Assembly (NCBI RefSeq): GCF_000039765.1
Contig: NC_004459.3
Location: forward strand, 1,050,001 to 1,082,000
DNA: 32,000 bases
Origin: Vibrio vulnificus CMCP6
Lineage (GTDB): Bacteria > Pseudomonadota > Gammaproteobacteria > Enterobacterales > Vibrionaceae
Reading direction: 5' to 3'
In this document: positions 5,193 through 31,906 of the stretch, one piece after another
Layout of the letters: each line of letters begins with the position of its first letter
How positions within the stretch are numbered: position 1 is the stretch's first letter
The notes under the pieces: generated by a model
What the model saw: the letters and a program-made list of their open reading frames with translations, nothing else
The model's database searches: none
What the model was told of the DNA's origin: nothing
Position numbers and translations under genes: made by a program

Positions 5193-6326
5193 CTACGCTT
5201 GCCACTTTTTTGCAAACTCATGCACCGCGGGGAAGGCTTTCTCATCCAATACATTGGCGAGAGCACAAAGGCGGCGCTGTAGCTCTCCGCTGTAATCACC
5301 ACACACGTTGATATGGCCCATTTTTCGGCCGGCGCGTTTCTCTTTGCCATACCAATGAATATGACAACCGTCCATCGCCATCACGCTTGCGGGCAGAGTA
5401 TCTTCACCAAGGATGTTGATCATTGAGGTTTCACGAACCAGCTTAGTGCTCCCAAGTGGTAAGCCACAAACGGCACGCAAATGATTTTCAAACTGGCAAG
5501 TTTCTGCTCCTTGCTGGGTCCAATGGCCGGAGTTATGAACTCGAGGTGCAATTTCATTGACCAGCAATTGTCCGTCGACATCGAAAAATTCAAGCGCCAA
5601 CACACCAACGTAGTTCAATGTTTCAGCAACAGCAGTAAACATGTGTTTGGCTTGCTCTTGTAGGTCCGGTGAGTCGATTGCCGTTGAAAGGCTTAACACG
5701 CCATTAACGTGAATGTTTTCTGCCAGTGGGTAGACTTCGATTTGCCCTTCTTTACCACGAGCGCCGATCAATGAAACTTCACGTTGAAATGGAACAAATT
5801 CTTCAGCGACAATCGCTTGAGTTGGCGTAGCAGCGATACAAGCTGCCATTTCTTGCCAAAGGGTTTCAATTTGTGCGGCATCTTTTAAGCGCCATTGCCC
5901 TTTACCATCATAGCCACCTAATGCGCTTTTCAACACCATAGGTATCCCAACGTGTTCAATCGCTTTATTGAAGTCTTCACGCGTTTCAATGACGTAGTAA
6001 TTGGCATTGCGTACGCCTGCATGGTCAAGCAAGGCTTTTTCCAAACGACGATCACCGCCAGCCTTAATCGCCTCACTACTTGGAAGAAACTTGCCACTCG
6101 CTTGGCAGATCGCCAATACGTCATGAGGAATGTGTTCAAATTCTGCAGTGATCACATCAACGTATTCAATCGCTTGCTCCAAGCCGTGACCAAGGAGATG
6201 CAATGTCAAAGGATGAACGACATCACCCGTTGTCACATCGTAGGCAGAAATCTGAATATTCAAAGGCGCACCGGCTAACGACATCATACGTGCCAATTGC
6301 CCTGCGCCTAGAACCAATACGTGCAT
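5193..6326 (-). CDS. purK: N5-carboxyaminoimidazole ribonucleotide synthase
   Basis: 377 aa. [15 protein letters not shown] and the ATP-grasp region are present. It starts 3 nt after the purE stop. Confidence 0.95.
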
Positions 6327-7553: not shown

Positions 7554-7581
7554 CCCTGCTCAGCTTCAAAAGGTAGTTTAG

Positions 7582-8499
<918 letters not shown>

Positions 8500-16233: not shown

Positions 16234-16240
16234 CTACATA

Positions 16241-16279
16241 GAAAGCCTGCAAAGTAATTTGCAGGCTTTCGTCATTTCT
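16241..16279 (+). terminator. rrn operon terminator hairpin
   Basis: GAAAGCCTGCAAA GTAA TTTGCAGGCTTTC forms a perfect 13-bp stem with a tetraloop. The T tail (GTCATTTCT) is weak. Confidence 0.6.
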
Positions 16280-16329
16280 GGTGTTTGATAATAAGAAGGG
16301 ATTTGTGTCAAACCCCTAGTTGTCAAATA

Positions 16330-25579: not shown

Positions 25580-27598
25580 ATGAAACTGAATCCAAGACAA
25601 GACGAAGCCGTGAAATACGTATCAGGTCCCTGCCTCGTGCTTGCGGGTGCGGGTTCAGGCAAAACACGCGTGATCACCAATAAGATTGCCTATTTGGTGC
25701 AACAGTGTGGCTACAAAGCGCGTAATATTGCGGCGGTCACCTTCACCAATAAAGCCGCACGTGAGATGAAAGAACGTGTGGGACAAACACTGGGGAAAGG
25801 GGAATCAAAAGGCCTGATGGTGTCAACCTTTCACACGCTTGGTTTGAACATCATCAAACGAGAGTATCGCCATCTGGGTTTGAAGTCGGGCTTTTCCTTG
25901 TTTGACGATCAAGATCAGCTTGCACTGCTTAAAGAGCTGACTGAAAAACAGCTGGATGGCGATAAAGATTTGCTGCGTCAGTTAATGAGCACCATCTCAA
26001 ATTGGAAAAACGACATGCTCTCACCAGAGCAGGCCGTGGCACGCGCGCAAGGCGAACAGCAGCAGTTGTTTGCCTTCTGTTTTGAGATGTATCAGAAGCA
26101 GATGAAAGCGTACAACGCCCTTGACTTTGATGATCTTATCTTGCTGCCTGTATTACTCCTTCGTGGGCATGATGAGGTGCGTCAATACTGGCAAAATCGT
26201 ATCCGTTACCTTCTGGTCGATGAGTATCAAGACACCAACACCAGTCAATATGAACTGGTGAGACTGCTGGTGGGTGAGCGCGGACGCTTAACCGTGGTGG
26301 GGGATGATGACCAATCGATTTACTCTTGGCGTGGGGCGAAACCGCAAAACTTAGTGTTGCTGGGGCAAGATTATCCCAACTTACGCCTGATTAAATTGGA
26401 GCAAAACTACCGTTCGACCAGCCGTATTTTGCGTGCGGCGAACATCTTGATTGCCAATAACCCACACGTGTATGAAAAGTCGCTCTTCTCGGAAATTCCC
26501 GATGGAGAAAAACTCAAAGTGCTGTTGGCCAATAATGATGAGCATGAGGCGGAGCGCGTCACGGGGGAAATCATTGCCCACAAGTTTCTCAATCGCACCG
26601 ACTATCGTGACTACGCCATCCTCTATCGTGGTAACCATCAATCGCGTCTCATCGAAAAGTCGCTGATGCAAAACCGCGTTCCTTATCGACTGTCTGGTGG
26701 TACGTCTTTCTTTGCGCGCGCGGAGATCAAAGACATCATGGCGTATTTGCGAGTGTTGGTGAATCCGGATGATGACAACGCATTTTTGCGCATCGTCAAC
26801 ACACCTAAGCGTGAAATTGGCCCTGTGACGCTGGAGAAGTTAGGCAGCTATGCCAACATGCGTGGCAAAAGTTTATTTGAAGCCAGCTTTGAACTTGGCC
26901 TTGAGCAGCATCTGACCGGACGTGGTCTCGATAATTTGCGGCGCTTTACTCATTGGCTGGTGGCGATTGCCGATCAAGCAGAGAGGGGAGATACCGTGGA
27001 AGCGGTGCGCTCGTTGGTGCGAGATATTCATTATGAGGATTGGTTGTACGAAACATCTGCCAGCCCGAAAGCCGCAGAAATGCGCATGAAAAACGTCTCT
27101 GATCTCTACTCTTGGATTGTCGCAGATTTAGAAGGTGACAATAACGATCAAGAAGAGAAAACGTTGAAAGAAGTGGTTCAACGTTTGACACTGCGTGACA
27201 TGATGGAACGTGGTGAAGAAGATGAAGACAGTGATGCCGTACAACTGATGACACTGCATGCGTCTAAAGGTCTGGAATTTCCATATGTGTACCTGATCGG
27301 GACTGAAGAAGGGATATTGCCGCACCAAACCAGTATCGATGAAGATAACGTCGAAGAAGAACGTCGCTTAATGTACGTCGGCATTACGCGTGCGCAGCGA
27401 GAGCTGACTTTCGTGATGTGTAAAGAGCGTCGTCAATATGGGGAGTTGATCAAACCCAGCCAAAGTCGCTTCCTAGACGAGTTGCCTTTCGATGATGTGG
27501 AATGGGAACAAACCAAAAAGCCAGTGACACAGGAAGAAAGAATGGCCAAAGGCCAAGCGCACATTGCCAACTTACGTGCCATGTTCAACAAGAAGTAG
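25580..27598 (+). CDS. rep: ATP-dependent DNA helicase Rep
   Basis: 672 aa. [39 protein letters not shown]..., [24 protein letters not shown] and YVGITRAQ are SF1 helicase motifs. It is collinear with E. coli Rep. Confidence 0.97.
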
Positions 27599-27659: not shown

Positions 27660-28058
27660 TTATAGACCTTTGATCATGTGATCAATCGCGGCAATGATTT
27701 CGTCGTCAGAACAGTCCATACACGTACCGCGAGGAGGCATGGCATTAAAGCCCTCAATCGCGTGCTTGTTCAACACATCATGACCTTGTGCGATACGAGG
27801 AGCCCAATCTGCAGCATTGCCCGTTTTTGGTGCGCCATTTACCCCAGACGAGTGACAAGCAATACAAAAAGTGCCGTAAACTGTTGCGCCATCACGCGGT
27901 CCGGTTGGTTCAGCTTTGACTGGCTCACTACCTGCTAGATAAACATCACCTACTGGCTTGATGCGCTCTGCAATGGCATCGTGGTCAGTACTGGTAGCCA
28001 TAGCTGCCGTAGAAAAGGTTAAAGCAGCGAATAAAACGCTAATCATTCGTCGAGACAT
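27660..28058 (-). CDS. cytochrome c5 (periplasmic monohaem c-type cytochrome)
   Basis: Signal peptide MSRRMISVLFAALTFSTAAMA, haem-binding CIACH, and a distal Met region GFNAMPPRGTCMDCSDDEI. The start is ATG 28058 or 28064; the upstream part of the track ORF is not supported. Confidence 0.88.
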   Translation of the reverse strand: MSRRMISVLFAALTFSTAAMATSTDHDAIAERIKPVGDVYLAGSEPVKAEPTGPRDGATVYGTFCIACHSSGVNGAPKTGNAADWAPRIAQGHDVLNKHAIEGFNAMPPRGTCMDCSDDEIIAAIDHMIKGL

Positions 28059-28316
28059 ATCCATTAAACTCACTTTACATTCCCAAGGTAAGTCAGCTGG
28101 CTTACCAAACATTTATATAGTTAGAGTGCTGTTTTGATTTAACGGTAAATTATCACTGTTAAATCAATGTAAATAATGGGTGATTATATCCCGTTAACTT
28201 GTTGCAATAAACAACAAGTTATCAGCTACAGGGGCTGAATCACATCTGTTATTTACATTTGTAGCCAGATAACTGACGAAAAAGAGACCAAACGGAAAAA
28301 AAACTAAAAAAAACAC

Positions 28317-28345
28317 TAGACGCCATAGTGTGAACTACGTATTAT
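28317..28345 (+). promoter_or_regulatory. candidate tRNA-operon promoter
   Basis: TAGACG, 17 nt, TATTAT, followed by the GC-rich discriminator CCACTCCGCC. It is preceded by a long A-tract (28294-28313, UP-like) and lies about 20 nt upstream of tRNA-Arg. Confidence 0.5.
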
Positions 28346-28366
28346 TCCACTCCGCCGATAGGGCAT

Positions 28367-28443
<77 letters not shown>

Positions 28444-28480
28444 TTTGGATGCCTGGGGGAGATATCGGTGAAAAAACAAT

Positions 28481-28557
28481 GGTGGCTATAGCTCAGTTGG
28501 TAGAGTCCCGGATTGTGATTCCGGTTGTCGCGGGTTCGAATCCCGTTAGCCACCCCA
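28481..28557 (+). tRNA. tRNA-His (GUG), copy 1
   Basis: GGTGGCTATAGCTCAGTTGGTAGAGTCCCGGATTGTGATTCCGG...AGCCACCCCA. It has the extra 5' G(-1) typical of tRNA-His. Anticodon GTG. Confidence 0.95.
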
Positions 28558-28583
28558 TTCTTTTCTAAGAATGAAACATTTGT

Positions 28584-28660
<77 letters not shown>

Positions 28661-28733
28661 CTATTATTTGGGTTTTGCTAAAGGCGAGGCTCAGGTTTAT
28701 GGCTTAAATAAGCGGTAAACATGACAATCTGAT

Positions 28734-28810
28734 GGTGGCTATAGCTCAGTTGGTAGAGTCCCGGATTGTGATTCCGGTTGTCGCGGGTTCGAATCCCGTT
28801 AGCCACCCCA
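28734..28810 (+). tRNA. tRNA-His (GUG), copy 2
   Basis: Identical in sequence to copy 1. Confidence 0.95.
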
Positions 28811-28834
28811 TTCTTTGTTTAAAGAATAAAATTT

Positions 28835-28911
<77 letters not shown>

Positions 28912-29411
28912 CATTCTAAAGCCTCACTAGCAATAGTGGGGCTTTTTTACATCTTGTATTAAATGCTGATGATTTTGTGTGCATACTGGGTCGGGGTCTG
29001 GAAGCCCAGCCGCGTCGAATCCCTCTTCACCGACCACATTCTAAAGCCTCACTAGCAATAGTGGGGCTTTTTTACATCTTGTATTAAATGCTGATGATTT
29101 TGTGTGCATACAGGGTCGGGGTCTGGAAGCCCAGCCGCGTCGAATTCCTCTTCATCGACCACATTCTAAAGCCTCACTAGCAATAGTGGGGCTTTTTTAC
29201 ATCTTGTATTAGATGCTGATGATTTTGTGTGCATACTGGGTCGGGGTCTGGAAGCCCAGCCGCGTCGAATTCCTCTTCACCGACCACATTCTAAAGCCTC
29301 ACTAGCAATAGTGGGGCTTTTTTACATCTTGTATTAGATGCTGATGATTTTGTGTGCATAGTGGGTCGGGGTCAGGAAGCCAAGCCGCGTTAAATCCCTC
29401 TTCACCCCCAC
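28912..29411 (+). repeat. 4 x 125-bp tandem repeat; each unit is an intrinsic terminator hairpin, a 39-nt spacer and a 49-nt tRNA-Pro 3' pseudo-fragment
   Basis: Units start at 28912, 29037, 29162 and 29287, an exact 125-bp period. Units 1-3 differ from each other at 2-3 positions. Unit 4 is more diverged in its tRNA-like part. Terminators (GCCTCACTA GCAA TAGTGGGGC TTTTTT) lie at 28921-28948, 29046-29073, 29171-29198 and 29296-29323. tRNA-like segments lie at 28988-29036, 29113-29161, 29238-29286 and 29363-29411. Confidence 0.95.
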
Positions 29412-29415
29412 CGTA

Positions 29416-29450
29416 GAAAGCCTGCTTTTGTCACCGGCTTTCGTTGTTTT
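29416..29450 (+). terminator. distal terminator closing the tRNA/repeat array
   Basis: GAAAGCC, a 13-nt loop, GGCTTTC, followed by GTTGTTTT. Confidence 0.5.
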
Positions 29451-30190
29451 GGCATCGTGGACTAAAGCGTCTGTGCGATCTTCTTCTCTCTACGGTTCTC
29501 ATTTTCTTGCCTCAACCCACGAGCCTTACTGGGTATGCCGATGCGCTCGCTTTTGTCTCTGATAAGAGACGTTTAAGGCTTTCTAAGCGAAGTTGCTGAT
29601 GAACCTCTCAATCTGAGAGGAAATCTCCCCTTTCTCATAACGCGTGGCTCTTTTGTGTCTATATTTTAGTTTCTTGGCATTTAACACTTTGATTTTCAAA
29701 CACCAGTGAGTTCCTAATGTTGTGAAGGAAAAACACAGCGGATACCCAGTGTCTATAATTCCATATTTAGCATTTTATGCTTAATGATTAGTTACACACT
29801 AAGCGTATTAACTGGTTTTTCTAAATGGAATAAAGTGTTGTTTTGTATTTGTTAATATTCACATGAAAAAATCTCACGGTAGATTGTGATGAATAATTGG
29901 CCTTTTTTGGCGACACTTTCTAGCAAAAATGCCAACTGGCACACAAAAAATGTTGTTCTGATTTTTGTTAAATATCTATTAACGAATATTTATTCGATAT
30001 TTTTGCCTTGAAATTAACCGATTGCTGGCTGTTAAACTTTAATTGTTGCTTTTTTGTGTGTTTTTTGCCAAATTGTGTTCCGACCTGATTTTTAGAGTAA
30101 TATTCTGCAATCAGAAGGGATTCATTGGTTTGTTGAATGATCATCGTGTTTGATTATTCAGCACCACAGACAAGGCAGTAGAGGTCTGAA

Positions 30191-31906
30191 ATGTCACTAT
30201 TAGAAGTGAAAAATCTTCGTATCGAGTATCCATCGCGGCATGGTATTCATGCGGCGGTGAAATCGTTGTCGTTTAATATTGAACGAGGCGAAATTGTTGG
30301 CGTCGTCGGTGAGTCGGGTGCGGGCAAGTCAACCGTAGGTAATGCGGTGAGCGATTTGTTGAGCCCTCCTGGTCGTATTGCCAGCGGTGATGTGTTCCTT
30401 GATGGCGAAAAAATTTCAGGCCTTTCTCCAGAAGCAATGCGCAAAGTGCGTGGCTCTAAAATTGGTTTTATCTTCCAAGATCCCATGACCTCGCTCAATC
30501 CTCTCTTTACTGTTGAACAGCAGTTAAAAGAAACCATTCACGCCAATATGAATGTCTCTGACGAAGAGGCTTACACGCGCGCATTGTCATTAATGAAGCA
30601 GGTGGGCATCCCTCAACCTGAAAACCGCTTAAAGCAGTATCCTCACCAGTTTTCTGGCGGTATGCGTCAGCGTGTAGTCATTGCGATTGCCCTAGCGGGC
30701 GAGCCGGATTTGATCATTGCCGATGAACCCACCACGGCACTCGATGTGTCGATTCAAGACCAAATCCTCAACCTGATCCGTGAGTTATGTATTAAGCATA
30801 ACGTGGGTTGCATGTTGGTCACGCACGACATGGGCGTGGTATCGAACGTGACTGACCGTGTTGCTGTTATGTACCGAGGTGACTTGGTTGAATTTGGTCC
30901 AACGGCCAAAGTGTTGGGCAACCCAGATCATCCTTATACGCGCAGCTTGATTTCAGCGGTACCACGTTCGGATAGGAAGCTTGATCGCTTCCCTCTGGTC
31001 AGCTACATCGAAGAAGCGAGTGAATTGCAGCCTCTTGATATTAAAAATCACTGGCTGGGTCAGAGTGAAGATCAGAGAAAATACACCGGACCACTGCTTA
31101 ATGTGGAAAATGTTAACTTGCGTTTCGTCACTAAGGACTCGCTGTTTGAGAGCCGTCGTGAGTATGTGCAGGCATCAAATAACGTTAGCTTCCAAGTGCA
31201 TGAAGGGGAAACCTTTGGCTTGGTGGGGGAATCGGGTTCGGGTAAATCCACTATTGCACGAGTCATTGCCGGGCTGTATGCGCCTAACTCAGGTAAGGTG
31301 ACGTTTGAAGGTATTGACCTTACCGCATTGACCTCAGAAAAAGCGCGCCGTCCTTTGCGTCGCCAAATGCAGATGGTCTTCCAAAATCCATACACTTCGA
31401 TGAACCCGCGCATGAAGATTTTCGATATCATCGCGGAGCCCATTCGTTTCCATAAGTTGACCAACAGTGAAGCGGAAACGCGCCAAATCGTGAACGATCT
31501 CTTGGAGCACGTTGGCTTAGGGCGAATGGCTGGGGTGAAATATCCACATGAATTTTCGGGTGGCCAGCGTCAGCGTATTTCGATTGCGCGCGCATTGGCG
31601 ACTCGTCCACGTCTTTTAATTTGTGATGAGCCCACCTCGGCACTGGATGTCTCGGTTCAAGCACAGATTCTGAATTTGCTCAAAGATCTACAAAGCGAAC
31701 TGAACTTAACCATGCTGTTTATCAGTCATGACCTTCCGGTTATCCGCCAAATGTGTGACCGAGTCGGTGTGATGCAGATGGGGACTCTGCTCGAAGTCGC
31801 ACCGACTGAGCAACTGTTCCGCTCTCCACAGCATGAGTACAGTAAGCACCTGATTTCCTTGATGCCAGAGTTCACTGGTTTGAGGGAAGAGGTGAAAACG
31901 GCATAA
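30191..31906 (+). CDS. fused two-domain ABC transporter ATP-binding protein, peptide/opine/nickel (Dpp/Opp; GsiA/YejF-like) family
   Basis: 571 aa. There are two Walker A motifs (GESGAGKST, GESGSGKST), two signature motifs (FSGGMRQR, FSGGQRQR) and two Walker B motifs (LIIADEPTTALD, LLICDEPTSALD). The oligopeptide-type C-terminal extensions (HPYT) are present. RBS GAGG 7 nt upstream. Confidence 0.93.
   Translation: MSLLEVKNLRIEYPSRHGIHAAVKSLSFNIERGEIVGVVGESGAGKSTVGNAVSDLLSPPGRIASGDVFLDGEKISGLSPEAMRKVRGSKIGFIFQDPMTSLNPLFTVEQQLKETIHANMNVSDEEAYTRALSLMKQVGIPQPENRLKQYPHQFSGGMRQRVVIAIALAGEPDLIIADEPTTALDVSIQDQILNLIRELCIKHNVGCMLVTHDMGVVSNVTDRVAVMYRGDLVEFGPTAKVLGNPDHPYTRSLISAVPRSDRKLDRFPLVSYIEEASELQPLDIKNHWLGQSEDQRKYTGPLLNVENVNLRFVTKDSLFESRREYVQASNNVSFQVHEGETFGLVGESGSGKSTIARVIAGLYAPNSGKVTFEGIDLTALTSEKARRPLRRQMQMVFQNPYTSMNPRMKIFDIIAEPIRFHKLTNSEAETRQIVNDLLEHVGLGRMAGVKYPHEFSGGQRQRISIARALATRPRLLICDEPTSALDVSVQAQILNLLKDLQSELNLTMLFISHDLPVIRQMCDRVGVMQMGTLLEVAPTEQLFRSPQHEYSKHLISLMPEFTGLREEVKTA

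What the first reader, a model, noticed from the sequence alone, without database searches (positions are those of the whole stretch)
28912..29450. tRNA operon ends in four tandem 125-bp units of terminator plus truncated tRNA-Pro 3' end
Directly after the second tRNA-Pro there are four head-to-tail copies of an exactly 125-bp unit. Each unit contains three parts:
- A strong intrinsic terminator: a 9-bp stem, a GCAA loop and a T6 tail.
- A 39-nt spacer.
- A 49-nt segment that reproduces the last 33 nt of tRNA-Pro, including CCA, with an 18-nt insertion.

Units 1-3 are nearly identical, with 2-3 substitutions between them, some inside the tRNA-like acceptor strand (for example TTCACCG to TTCATCG in unit 2). 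Unit 4 is clearly older or more diverged and is followed by a different terminator. Five consecutive terminators behind one tRNA operon is not normal operon architecture. The near-identity of units 1-3 suggests recent amplification, for example by unequal crossing-over between the 22-nt tRNA 3' identity blocks. I do not know of a described element with this composition.
Basis: seen in the sequence. Interest (0 to 1): 0.7.

Follow-up and report, generated by a model that had tools for sequence, protein, structure and literature searches.

The report
Variable-copy terminator plus tRNA-Pro-remnant repeat
Behind a Vibrio vulnificus tRNA operon lies a real, strain-variable tandem repeat, each unit holding the operon's terminator and a dead piece of tRNA-Pro; it is the same kind of repeat long known behind the E. 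coli tyrT gene, and only a short insertion conserved across genera is unexplained.

Summary
An Arg-His-Pro-His-Pro tRNA operon (28367-28911, +) is followed by four head-to-tail 125-bp units (28912-29411). Each unit holds a strong terminator hairpin with a T6 tail, a 39-nt spacer and a 49-nt copy of the tRNA-Pro 3' end. In that copy, 18 nt replace two T-arm/T-loop bases. A fifth, weaker terminator follows.

The window is V. vulnificus. Seventeen conspecific loci carry 1 to 4 units, and finished genomes carry 3. The last unit is always decayed, while internal units carry a near-perfect tRNA 3' end and the tRNA's own trailer. This is what unequal recombination or slippage between the tRNA-Pro 3' end and an older downstream tRNA-Pro remnant predicts.

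Similar arrays of 2-7 copies, with periods of about 102-145 bp, follow tRNA-Pro(UGG) in other Vibrio species. All 12 Vibrionaceae matches lay behind tRNA-Pro, and no relative turned up in phage, viral, plasmid or metagenome searches.

The closest known case is the 178-bp repeat behind E. coli tyrT/tyrV (RtT), reproduced here. The architecture is the same but the sequence family is not.

One thing is unexplained. The 18-nt insertion is 83-100% identical across species whose adjoining spacers have diverged. A function is therefore not excluded, though decayed sole copies and absence from V. cholerae and V. parahaemolyticus argue against an essential one.

The parts
28367..28911 (+). tRNA operon Arg(CCG)-His(GTG)-Pro(TGG)-His(GTG)-Pro(TGG). 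The last 22 nt of the second tRNA-Pro (28890-28911) are the left edge of the repeat.
   Evidence: ARAGORN; Rfam tRNA at 67-70 bits; TRF array starts at 28890
28912..29036 (+). Unit 1 (125 bp): trailer and terminator 28912-28948, spacer 28949-28987, tRNA-Pro-like fragment 28988-29036. Its 22-nt 3' block is identical to the tRNA.
29037..29161 (+). Unit 2 (125 bp): terminator 29043-29073, fragment 29113-29161. Private changes: GAATTCC and CATCG.
29162..29286 (+). Unit 3 (125 bp): terminator 29168-29198, fragment 29238-29286.
29287..29411 (+). Unit 4, the terminal and decayed unit. The terminator 29293-29323 is intact. The fragment 29363-29411 is diverged (TCAGGAAGCCAAGCCGCG ... TTAAATCCCTCTTCACCCCCAC).
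   Evidence: this position is the most variable in the species
28918..28948 (+). Intrinsic-terminator-like hairpin AAAGCCTCACTA-GCAA-TAGTGGGGCTTT plus T tract. Identical copies at 29043, 29168 and 29293.
   Evidence: 4 exact matches, 0 expected; -17.1 kcal/mol; compensatory stem changes between species. Termination itself is inferred.
28997..29014 (+). 18-nt insertion TCTGGAAGCCCAGCCGCG replacing G53-T54 of the tRNA-Pro T arm and loop. It contains the small hairpin CTGG-AAGC-CCAG. Copies at 29122 and 29247, and at 29372 with 2 changes.
   Evidence: 83-100% identical across species; covariation not significant
29416..29450 (+). Diverged fifth copy of the trailer and terminator (GAAAGCCTG...CCGGCTTTC GTTGTTTT), the right edge of the repeat.
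   Evidence: alignment; -9.6 kcal/mol; present in all 17 V. vulnificus loci
28946..28973 (+). Promoter-like match TTTACA-16-GATGAT in each spacer (also at 29071, 29196, 29321). Judged not to be a conserved promoter.
   Evidence: 9 of 12 match; the -35 comes from the terminator's T tract; by eye, the V. navarrensis, V. agarilyticus and V. xiamenensis spacers printed hold no comparable match (the scanner was not run on them)

Best explanation
The array is a copy-number-variable tandem duplication. It is produced by unequal homologous recombination, or by replication slippage, between the 3' end of the last tRNA-Pro(UGG) gene and an old, non-functional tRNA-Pro-derived remnant lying one terminator further downstream.

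The ancestral state was tRNA-Pro, trailer and terminator, spacer, remnant, then a second copy of the terminator. Eight of 17 V. vulnificus strains still show it. Misaligned pairing of the 22-nt block TCGAATCCCTCTTCACCGACCA (and of GGGTCGGGG) in the real gene with the same block in the remnant adds or removes one 125-bp unit. Every new internal remnant takes its 5' part, including the insertion, from the old remnant. It takes its 3' end and the following terminator from the real gene. Only the last unit keeps the old, decaying 3' end.

Each unit therefore brings a working copy of the operon's terminator, so the operon ends in a stack of terminators. The fragments lack a 5' acceptor strand, a D arm and an anticodon arm, and cannot make a tRNA.

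**Shown:** the anatomy, the linkage to tRNA-Pro, the polymorphism, the decay of the distal unit, and parallel arrays in other species.
**Inferred:** the recombination mechanism, termination at the hairpins, and the lack of function of the fragments.
For: - **Array.** 125 bp x 4.1 copies, starting inside the real tRNA's T loop.
- **Species.** The window's Rep protein is identical to that of V. vulnificus CMCP6.
- **Polymorphism.** Copy number among 17 V. vulnificus loci is 1 (8 loci), 2 (2), 3 (6, including finished YJ016 and CP060047.1) and 4 (the window).
- **Pattern within arrays.** Every strain keeps one decayed terminal unit plus a diverged terminator. Internal units have perfect or near-perfect tRNA 3' ends and identical trailers. 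Distal terminators also pick up mutations, for example GGGGGGTTTTT in YJ016 unit 3.
- **Same process in relatives.**
  - V. navarrensis has 1, 3 or 4 units of 127 bp among strains with identical cytochrome c5.
  - V. ostreicida has 6 and 7 units.
  - V. agarilyticus has 6 x 109 bp, and V. xiamenensis 3 x about 145 bp.
  - V. inusitatus has 3 x 124 bp, and V. caribbeanicus 2.
  - In each species the sequence after a fragment matches that species' own tRNA-Pro trailer.
- **Unequal exchange in the operon itself.** V. parahaemolyticus strains differ by one His-Pro unit.
- **Compound arrays** mixing two remnant types occur in a V. natriegens-group genome, L066.
- **The fragments are not tRNAs.** There is no ARAGORN or Rfam call.
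- **Known precedent.** The E. coli tyrT/tyrV distal repeat was reproduced here.
Against: - The 18-nt insertion, which the real tRNA cannot refresh, is 18/18 identical in V. vulnificus, V. navarrensis, V. agarilyticus and Photobacterium galatheae, and 15-16/18 in V. xiamenensis and V. inusitatus. The adjoining spacers are only 35-57% identical in the same species. A purely neutral relic should have diverged.
- In the small hairpin the stem is conserved and the loop varies (AAGC, AGCG, ATCG, ACGC, ACGG). Enterovibrio shows one compensatory change, CTGG/CCAG to CTTG/CAAG.
- Recombination was not observed directly, and slippage cannot be told apart from crossing-over.
- No transcript data were available, so lack of function is an inference.
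Confidence: 0.7

Rival explanations
1. The fragment with its conserved T-loop hairpin is a functional element kept by selection. It could be a small RNA released from read-through transcripts by the tRNA 3'-processing enzymes, as RtT is. It could be a 3'-external-spacer-type regulatory RNA ending at the next terminator, or a protein-binding or decoy module. Under this reading the array sets its dosage.
For: - The insertion is 83-100% identical across species and genera while the spacers have diverged.
- Two insertion types, A-like and B, coexist in one genome (Vibrio sp. qd031), and type B recurs unchanged in V. ostreicida and V. mytili.
- The stem is conserved, the loop varies, and there is one compensatory change.
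- Each fragment is followed by a hairpin with a U tail, the usual 3' end of a bacterial small RNA.
- The E. coli analogue does yield an RNA: rttR is annotated there and Rfam RtT matches it.
Against: - Eight of 17 V. vulnificus strains carry only the decayed copy. That copy has pi 0.163, with 9 alleles in 14 strains.
- The fragment is absent from the orthologous locus of V. cholerae, V. parahaemolyticus and V. pectenicida.
- Covariation on the proposed hairpin is not above the shuffle controls: 2 double-sided changes, reached by 230 of 500 shuffles.
- The fragment's fold is no better than that of shuffled sequence, z about 0.
- The promoter-like match is not conserved in sister species.
- A strong terminator stands in front of every fragment.
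- No Rfam family matches.
Confidence: 0.17
2. Copy number is itself under selection. Stacking terminators behind a very strongly transcribed tRNA operon insulates the co-directional ABC-transporter operon at 30191 from read-through.
For: - The terminator and spacer part is far less variable than the fragment within the species (pi 0.02 against 0.163).
- Terminator stems keep pairing through compensatory changes between species.
- The downstream genes are on the same strand.
- Tandem terminators are known behind rRNA operons such as rrnB T1-T2 (my own knowledge).
Against: - One unit is the commonest state in V. vulnificus.
- V. cholerae, V. parahaemolyticus and E. coli proM manage with a single terminator.
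- Distal terminators accumulate mutations.
- This reading gives no reason why a tRNA fragment would be needed.
Confidence: 0.1
3. The fragments are attachment-site scars: partial tRNA copies left by integrative elements that target the tRNA-Pro 3' end.
For: - Partial 3' tRNA copies are the classic signature of element integration (PMC9897764).
- The identity block starts in the T loop, a known integrase sublocation (my own knowledge).
Against: - Only 76 nt lie between the gene and the fragment, and they are the tRNA's own trailer, terminator and a spacer. None of the more than 60 Vibrionaceae loci examined has an integrase or element between the gene and a fragment.
- Neither the fragment nor the unit matched anything related in viral contigs, phage genomes or plasmids.
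- The one integrase-bearing insertion seen, in L065, sits about 240 nt downstream inside a different terminator, not at the tRNA.
- Full-length degenerate tRNA-Pro copies with the same insertion exist, and an att scar would not produce those.
Confidence: 0.04
4. A generic dispersed miniature repeat (REP- or MITE-like) that happens to lie here, or an assembly expansion.
For: The insertion is a short imperfect palindrome, as REP elements are.
Against: - There is no other copy of the insertion, terminator or fragment in the 32-kb window.
- All 12 Vibrionaceae hits, in a collection with one genome for each of 185,579 species, lie directly behind tRNA-Pro.
- The units carry private substitutions, and arrays are present in finished genomes.
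Confidence: 0.03

Closest known systems
E. coli tyrT/tyrV distal 178-bp tandem repeats (RtT RNA, Rfam RF00391; rttR and tpr)
   Same: Both are head-to-tail repeats lying directly 3' of a tRNA gene on the same strand. Each unit ends in the 3' terminal segment of that tRNA, including CCA. In E. coli that is 178 bp x 3.1 copies, with AATCCTTCCCCCACCACCA at each unit end. Unequal recombination at the tRNA 3' block is the obvious origin in both cases.
   Different: - There is no sequence or structure relationship. RtT scores 133-138 bits on the E. coli units and nothing at E<=10 on the window.
- The E. coli unit has no intrinsic terminator and carries the small ORF tpr.
- The Vibrio unit carries a strong terminator, a longer tRNA-derived piece (31 nt against 19) interrupted by an 18-nt insertion, and no conserved ORF.
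- An RNA product is annotated for E. coli and untested here.
Partial tRNA genes at the ends of integrated mobile elements (attL/attR duplications)
   Same: A 3' piece of a tRNA gene is repeated downstream of the intact gene in direct orientation (PMC9897764).
   Different: Those copies are separated by a kb-scale element with an integrase. Here the distance is 76 nt of the operon's own trailer, the copies are tandem and variable in number, and no related mobile-element sequence was found.
Tandem intrinsic terminators behind stable-RNA operons (e.g. rrnB T1-T2) and tRNA 3' external transcribed spacers (e.g. 3'ETS-leuZ)
   Same: A highly expressed stable-RNA operon ends in more than one hairpin-plus-U-tract terminator. 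The trailer plus terminator is the kind of fragment that can persist as a small RNA (my own knowledge; not tested here).
   Different: Those terminators are unrelated sequences at fixed number. Here they are identical copies within a polymorphic repeat, interleaved with tRNA remnants.
Copy-number change of tandem tRNA genes by unequal recombination
   Same: The same locus shows it for whole genes: one His-Pro unit against two in V. parahaemolyticus strains.
   Different: In the window the exchanged unit holds no functional tRNA.

Membership tests
tyrT-type tRNA-distal tandem repeat (architecture) | Lies immediately 3' of a tRNA gene, on the same strand | tested here: met
   The array starts within the last 22 nt of tRNA-Pro, at 28890.
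tyrT-type tRNA-distal tandem repeat (architecture) | Head-to-tail units that each end in the 3' terminal segment of the upstream tRNA, including CCA | tested here: met
   Units 1-3 end in ...TCTTCA(C/T)CGACCA. Unit 4 is decayed. The E. coli control shows the same layout.
RtT RNA (Rfam RF00391) | Match to the RtT covariance model | tested here: not met
   No RtT match at E<=10 in 28000-30000. The positive control on E. coli K-12 gives four hits of 133-138 bits.
RtT RNA (Rfam RF00391) | A discrete RNA is released from the operon transcript | not testable with these tools
   No transcript data.
att-site partial tRNA copy of an integrative element | A mobile element with an integrase lies between the intact gene and the partial copy | tested here: not met
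   76 nt separate them. No integrase lies between the gene and a fragment in any locus.
att-site partial tRNA copy of an integrative element | The same sequence is present in a phage, plasmid or other element (attP) | tested here: not met
   No hit in viral contigs, phages or plasmids. The 18-mer hits in viral contigs lack any tRNA context and look like chance. ICEs and genomic islands as such could not be searched.
Intrinsic (Rho-independent) terminator | G+C-rich hairpin directly followed by a U tract | tested here: met
   A 9-12-bp stem, GCAA loop, T6 tail and -17.1 kcal/mol. Stems covary between species. The consensus scanner missed them. Termination activity was not tested.
tRNA gene or tRNA pseudogene recognisable as a cloverleaf | Detected by ARAGORN or by the Rfam tRNA model | tested here: not met
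   No call in 28912-29450. The full-length degenerate copies in other species are not detected either.
Dispersed miniature repeat (REP/MITE) | Many copies at unrelated loci | tested here: not met
   No further copy in the window. All 12 Vibrionaceae hits lie behind tRNA-Pro.
Independently transcribed small-RNA gene | Conserved promoter upstream and a terminator downstream | tested here: inconclusive
   A terminator is present. The TTTACA-16-GATGAT match is conserved within V. vulnificus. By eye, the sister-species spacers printed hold no comparable match; the scanner was not run on them. Expression is untested.

The most novel reading that the evidence does not exclude
The tRNA-Pro-like fragment is not junk. 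Under this reading, Vibrionaceae maintain a family of tRNA-Pro-derived elements: full-length copies with a disrupted T loop, 5' halves, and 3' fragments. The conserved T-loop hairpin and the authentic ...ACCGACCA 3' end would make a functional RNA, or a protein-binding or decoy module. Examples would be a processed rtT-like regulator, or a mimic of the tRNA-Pro 3' end that titrates an enzyme or toxin acting on it. The polymorphic arrays would tune its dosage.
Probability: 0.15. Interest if true: 0.65.

Novelty: new member of a known kind. Interest (0 to 1): 0.35.

Why it matters
As it stands this is a clean natural example of how tRNA operon ends evolve. A short block of identity to a tRNA 3' end drives frequent gain and loss of a 125-bp unit, giving a strain-variable locus (1-4 copies in V. 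vulnificus and up to 7 in relatives).

The practical consequences are modest:
- The locus will collapse or vary in short-read assemblies.
- It could serve as a typing marker.
- It generates stacked terminators whose effect on the neighbouring ABC-transporter operon can be measured.

It would matter more if the conserved 18-nt insertion turns out to mark a functional tRNA-Pro-derived RNA family in Vibrionaceae, because the function of the E. coli counterpart (RtT) is itself still unclear.

Tried and rejected
- **Rfam scan** of 28000-30000 at E<=10 found only the five tRNAs. The weak RefA9, YrlA and other hits are far below their gathering scores and reflect terminator or tRNA likeness.
- **Metagenome scan** with the gapped fragment pattern gave 7 loci, all unrelated chance matches.
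- **Viral-contig scans** gave nothing for the gapped pattern. The 18-mer gave 6 hits in G+C-rich contigs (54-68% G+C) without tRNA context, which I take as chance.
- **blastn of the unit** against phages and plasmids found no match.
- **Spacer as a decayed tRNA-Pro 5' half.** Local alignments of 14 spacers to the tRNA 5' half are individually not better than shuffles (p 0.02-0.9). There is a recurring (G/A)CATCTG just after the T tract. The idea is left open, not claimed.
- **Hairpin covariation.** 84.8% of cells pair, but only 2 double-sided changes occur, which is not above shuffles.
- **Small ORFs.** A 30-aa ATG ORF recurs in each unit, but I saw no Shine-Dalgarno-like sequence upstream and its spacer part is not conserved in other species. 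It is treated as mechanical.
- **Other tRNAs in the window** (Glu, Lys, Val, Ser, Arg, His) have no downstream 3' fragments.
- **Literature searches** found no description of the Vibrio element. The original tyrT/rtT paper (PMC329039) is not held.
Full report
**1. What is in the window**

ARAGORN and Rfam place five tRNA genes on the + strand: Arg(CCG) 28367-28443, His 28482-28557, Pro(UGG) 28584-28660, His 28735-28810 and Pro(UGG) 28835-28911. The flanking genes are:
- rep helicase (25580-27598, +);
- a cytochrome c5 gene (27660-28112, -);
- an ABC-transporter ATPase (30191-31906, +).

The Rep protein is identical to that of Vibrio vulnificus CMCP6.

Tandem Repeats Finder reports a 125-bp period, 4.1 copies, 96% matches and no indels from 28890 to 29406. 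The repeat therefore begins inside the T loop of the real tRNA-Pro. Each of the four units (28912, 29037, 29162, 29287) consists of:
- CATTCT;
- the hairpin AAAGCCTCACTA-GCAA-TAGTGGGGCTTT with a T tract, present in four exact copies with 0 expected and folding at -17.1 kcal/mol;
- a 39-nt spacer;
- a 49-nt piece, GGGTCGGGG-TCTGGAAGCCCAGCCGCG-TCGAATCCCTCTTCACCGACCA.

Compared with the tRNA, the 18 nt replace G53-T54, so 31 of the last 33 tRNA bases are reproduced. Units 1-3 differ by 2-3 substitutions. Unit 4 has an intact terminator but a decayed fragment. It is followed by a diverged copy of the trailer and terminator (29416-29450, -9.6 kcal/mol).

**2. Is it real, and is it linked to tRNA-Pro?**

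I scanned one genome from each of 185,579 species with a pattern that requires the two tRNA-derived blocks to be separated by 8-30 nt, which excludes true tRNA-Pro genes. It returned 14 loci:
- Twelve are from Vibrionaceae (Vibrio, Photobacterium, Enterovibrio). All twelve lie directly 3' of a tRNA-Pro(UGG) gene on the same strand.
- Two are chance hits in unrelated phyla, without tRNAs.

The same pattern found nothing in viral contigs. It found only unrelated sequences in metagenomes. The unit has no match in phage or plasmid collections. Within the window, none of the parts occurs elsewhere, and no other tRNA has such a tail.

**3. Variation within the species**

I retrieved contigs that encode exactly the window's Rep protein, or the YJ016 variant. 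Together with the window this gave 17 V. vulnificus loci. I counted units between the last tRNA-Pro and a conserved anchor:

| Units | Loci | Notes |
|---|---|---|
| 1 | 8 | includes the CP-accession records CP012739.1 and CP133117.1 |
| 2 | 2 | |
| 3 | 6 | includes the finished genome YJ016 (BA000037.2) and CP060047.1 |
| 4 | 1 | the window |

Every strain ends with one decayed unit plus the diverged terminator. All additional units are internal. They have a perfect or near-perfect tRNA 3' end and an identical trailer and terminator.

The terminal fragment is a hotspot of diversity:

| Segment | pi |
|---|---|
| Terminal fragment (9 alleles in 14 strains) | 0.163 |
| The 76 nt before it | 0.02 |
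| The 39 nt after it | 0.05 |
| 12-kb background | 0.016 |

Distal terminators also start to decay, as in YJ016 unit 3.

**4. Other species**

The orthologous rep-cytochrome c5-tRNA-ABC locus was examined through cytochrome c5 homologues.

Arrays of the same construction:

| Species | Units |
|---|---|
| V. navarrensis | 1, 3 and 4 units of 127 bp in three strains with identical cytochrome c5 |
| V. ostreicida | 6 and 7 units in two records with CP accessions (contigs of about 3.4 Mb) |
| V. floridensis | at least 2 |
| V. xiamenensis | 3 of about 145 bp |
| V. inusitatus | 3 of 124 bp |
| V. agarilyticus | 6 of 109 bp |
| V. caribbeanicus | 2 |

Further points:
- In every species the sequence behind a fragment matches that species' own tRNA-Pro trailer and terminator, and the terminator stems differ by compensatory changes.
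- V. cholerae, V. parahaemolyticus and V. pectenicida have no fragment at this locus.
- V. parahaemolyticus strains differ by a whole His-Pro unit.
- V. mytili, V. ordalii, V. sinaloensis and V. natriegens-group strains carry other variants of a degenerate tRNA-Pro copy followed by a duplicated terminator. One finished genome has a compound repeat of two variants.

**5. Origin of the fragment**

Enterovibrio species and V. mytili carry a full-length but degenerate tRNA-Pro-like copy with the same kind of T-loop insertion. It has an acceptor 5' strand, a D arm, and an altered anticodon arm sharing the motif AGCGGACCAGAGGG. Neither ARAGORN nor the Rfam tRNA model recognises these copies.

The window's fragment is thus the 3' part of an old tRNA-Pro paralogue or pseudogene that predates the amplification. 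Whether the 39-nt spacer is the decayed 5' half could not be shown.

**6. Mechanism**

The pattern matches what unequal exchange, or slippage, between the real tRNA-Pro 3' end and the downstream remnant predicts:
- The repeat starts in the tRNA's T loop.
- Internal remnants combine the old 5' part, including the insertion, with a fresh tRNA 3' end and the tRNA's own trailer.
- The terminal unit alone is old.
- Copy number differs in steps of one unit between close relatives.

Each event adds or removes one 125-bp unit. The stack of terminators is a consequence of what the unit contains. The recombination itself, the activity of the terminators and the lack of function of the fragments are inferences.

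**7. Comparison with known systems**

In E. coli K-12 the region behind tyrV holds a 178-bp repeat of 3.1 copies. Each unit ends in the last 19 nt of tRNA-Tyr, and rttR and tpr are annotated there. Rfam RtT hits those units at 133-138 bits but does not hit the window. The Vibrio array is therefore a new member of this architectural kind, not a member of the RtT family.

It differs in three ways:
- It includes a strong intrinsic terminator.
- It includes a longer tRNA piece, interrupted by the insertion.
- It has no conserved ORF.

E. coli proM, the orthologous last gene of argX-hisR-leuT-proM, has a single terminator and no fragment.

Attachment-site scars of integrated elements (PMC9897764) were considered and rejected, for three reasons:
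- Nothing but the operon's own trailer lies between the gene and the fragment.
- No mobile-element match exists.
- The only integrase-bearing insertion seen (L065) sits elsewhere.

**8. What remains unexplained**

The 18-nt insertion cannot be refreshed from the real tRNA. It is nevertheless:
- 18/18 identical in V. vulnificus, V. navarrensis, V. agarilyticus and Photobacterium galatheae;
- 15-16/18 identical in V. xiamenensis and V. inusitatus.

The adjoining spacers in these species are 35-57% identical, and the Pro-His spacer, compared in V. navarrensis and V. ostreicida only, is 57-62% identical. The small hairpin keeps its stem while the loop varies, with one compensatory change in Enterovibrio.

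Formal counting, however, gives no significant covariation, and the fragment's fold is no better than that of shuffled sequence. Against an essential function stand the decayed sole copies in half of the V. vulnificus strains and the absence of the fragment from major Vibrio species. Constraint on at least one copy per array, or horizontal spread, would each explain the conservation. The tools here cannot decide between them.

**9. Verdict**

- The claim that the element is of an undescribed kind is not.

It is a new, well-documented member of a known kind, with one conserved feature worth an experiment. Interest is 0.35.

Noticed in passing
L006 (Vibrio sp. qd031), L007/L008/L013 (Enterovibrio), L045 (V. 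ordalii); positions: 5'-half-like tRNA-Pro copies sit about 35 nt upstream of genuine tRNA-Pro genes. They have an acceptor 5' strand, a D arm, a small variable hairpin, then AGCGGACCAGAGGG-loop-CCCTC. The small hairpins differ by compensatory changes (CATC/GATG, ATTC/GAAT, CTCA/TGAG).
   Followed up: partly
L014 and L041 (V. mytili), L002 (uncultured Vibrio), L064-L066 (V. natriegens group), L063 (V. sinaloensis), L045 (V. ordalii): There is a second family of degenerate tRNA-Pro copies with a different T-loop disruption (TTCG-CCTGATGTTCAA(G/A)TTCTGG). Each is also followed by a duplicated terminator. L066 has a compound repeat mixing this type with the hairpin type. All four variants seen interrupt the T loop.
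   Followed up: partly
window 29363-29411 and the same position in L015-L024, L050-L055: The terminal fragment is a diversity hotspot within V. vulnificus: pi 0.163, with 9 alleles in 14 strains. Its immediate flanks have pi 0.02 and 0.05. The cause is unknown; it could be mosaic conversion, mutagenic repair or old alleles.
   Followed up: partly
L036 versus L037 (V. parahaemolyticus): Strains with identical cytochrome c5 differ by one whole His-Pro tRNA unit: Arg-His-Pro against Arg-His-Pro-His-Pro.
   Followed up: yes
L048 about 6100-6240 on the tRNA strand, L014 about 7570-7620, L008 after 5228 on the tRNA strand: Microsatellites lie just behind the tRNA-Pro clusters. V. ostreicida and V. 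mytili have (CCAGAA)n and CCTAGG-rich repeats, and E. norvegicus has (CGAAACT)n.
   Followed up: no
L065 (V. natriegens-group strain), about 240 nt downstream of the last tRNA-Pro: An element encoding a Phage_integrase protein and an Integrase_2 protein is inserted inside the loop of a downstream terminator hairpin (AAACCCCAGCACAGT|...). It replaces the HAD hydrolase and ABC genes seen in L064 and L066.
   Followed up: partly
window 16234-16280 and 29412-29450: The trailer and terminator of tRNA-Ser (TAGAAAGCCTGC...GCAGGCTTTCGTCATTT) resembles the diverged terminator after the array (TAGAAAGCCTGC...CCGGCTTTCGTTGTTTT).
   Followed up: no
L010 (V. xiamenensis) units 2-3, L002, L066: Some unit terminators carry a 15-nt insertion in the 5' stem (A(A/G)CT(A/C)GCCG(T/G)CCGCG). 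Its 3' end, CCGCGTC, resembles the end of the fragment's 18-nt insertion, which suggests exchanges between fragment and terminator.
   Followed up: no
window 27660-28112 (-): The cytochrome c5 gene is called with two different starts in public genomes (150 aa against 134 aa). The shorter form begins MDMSRRM.
   Followed up: no
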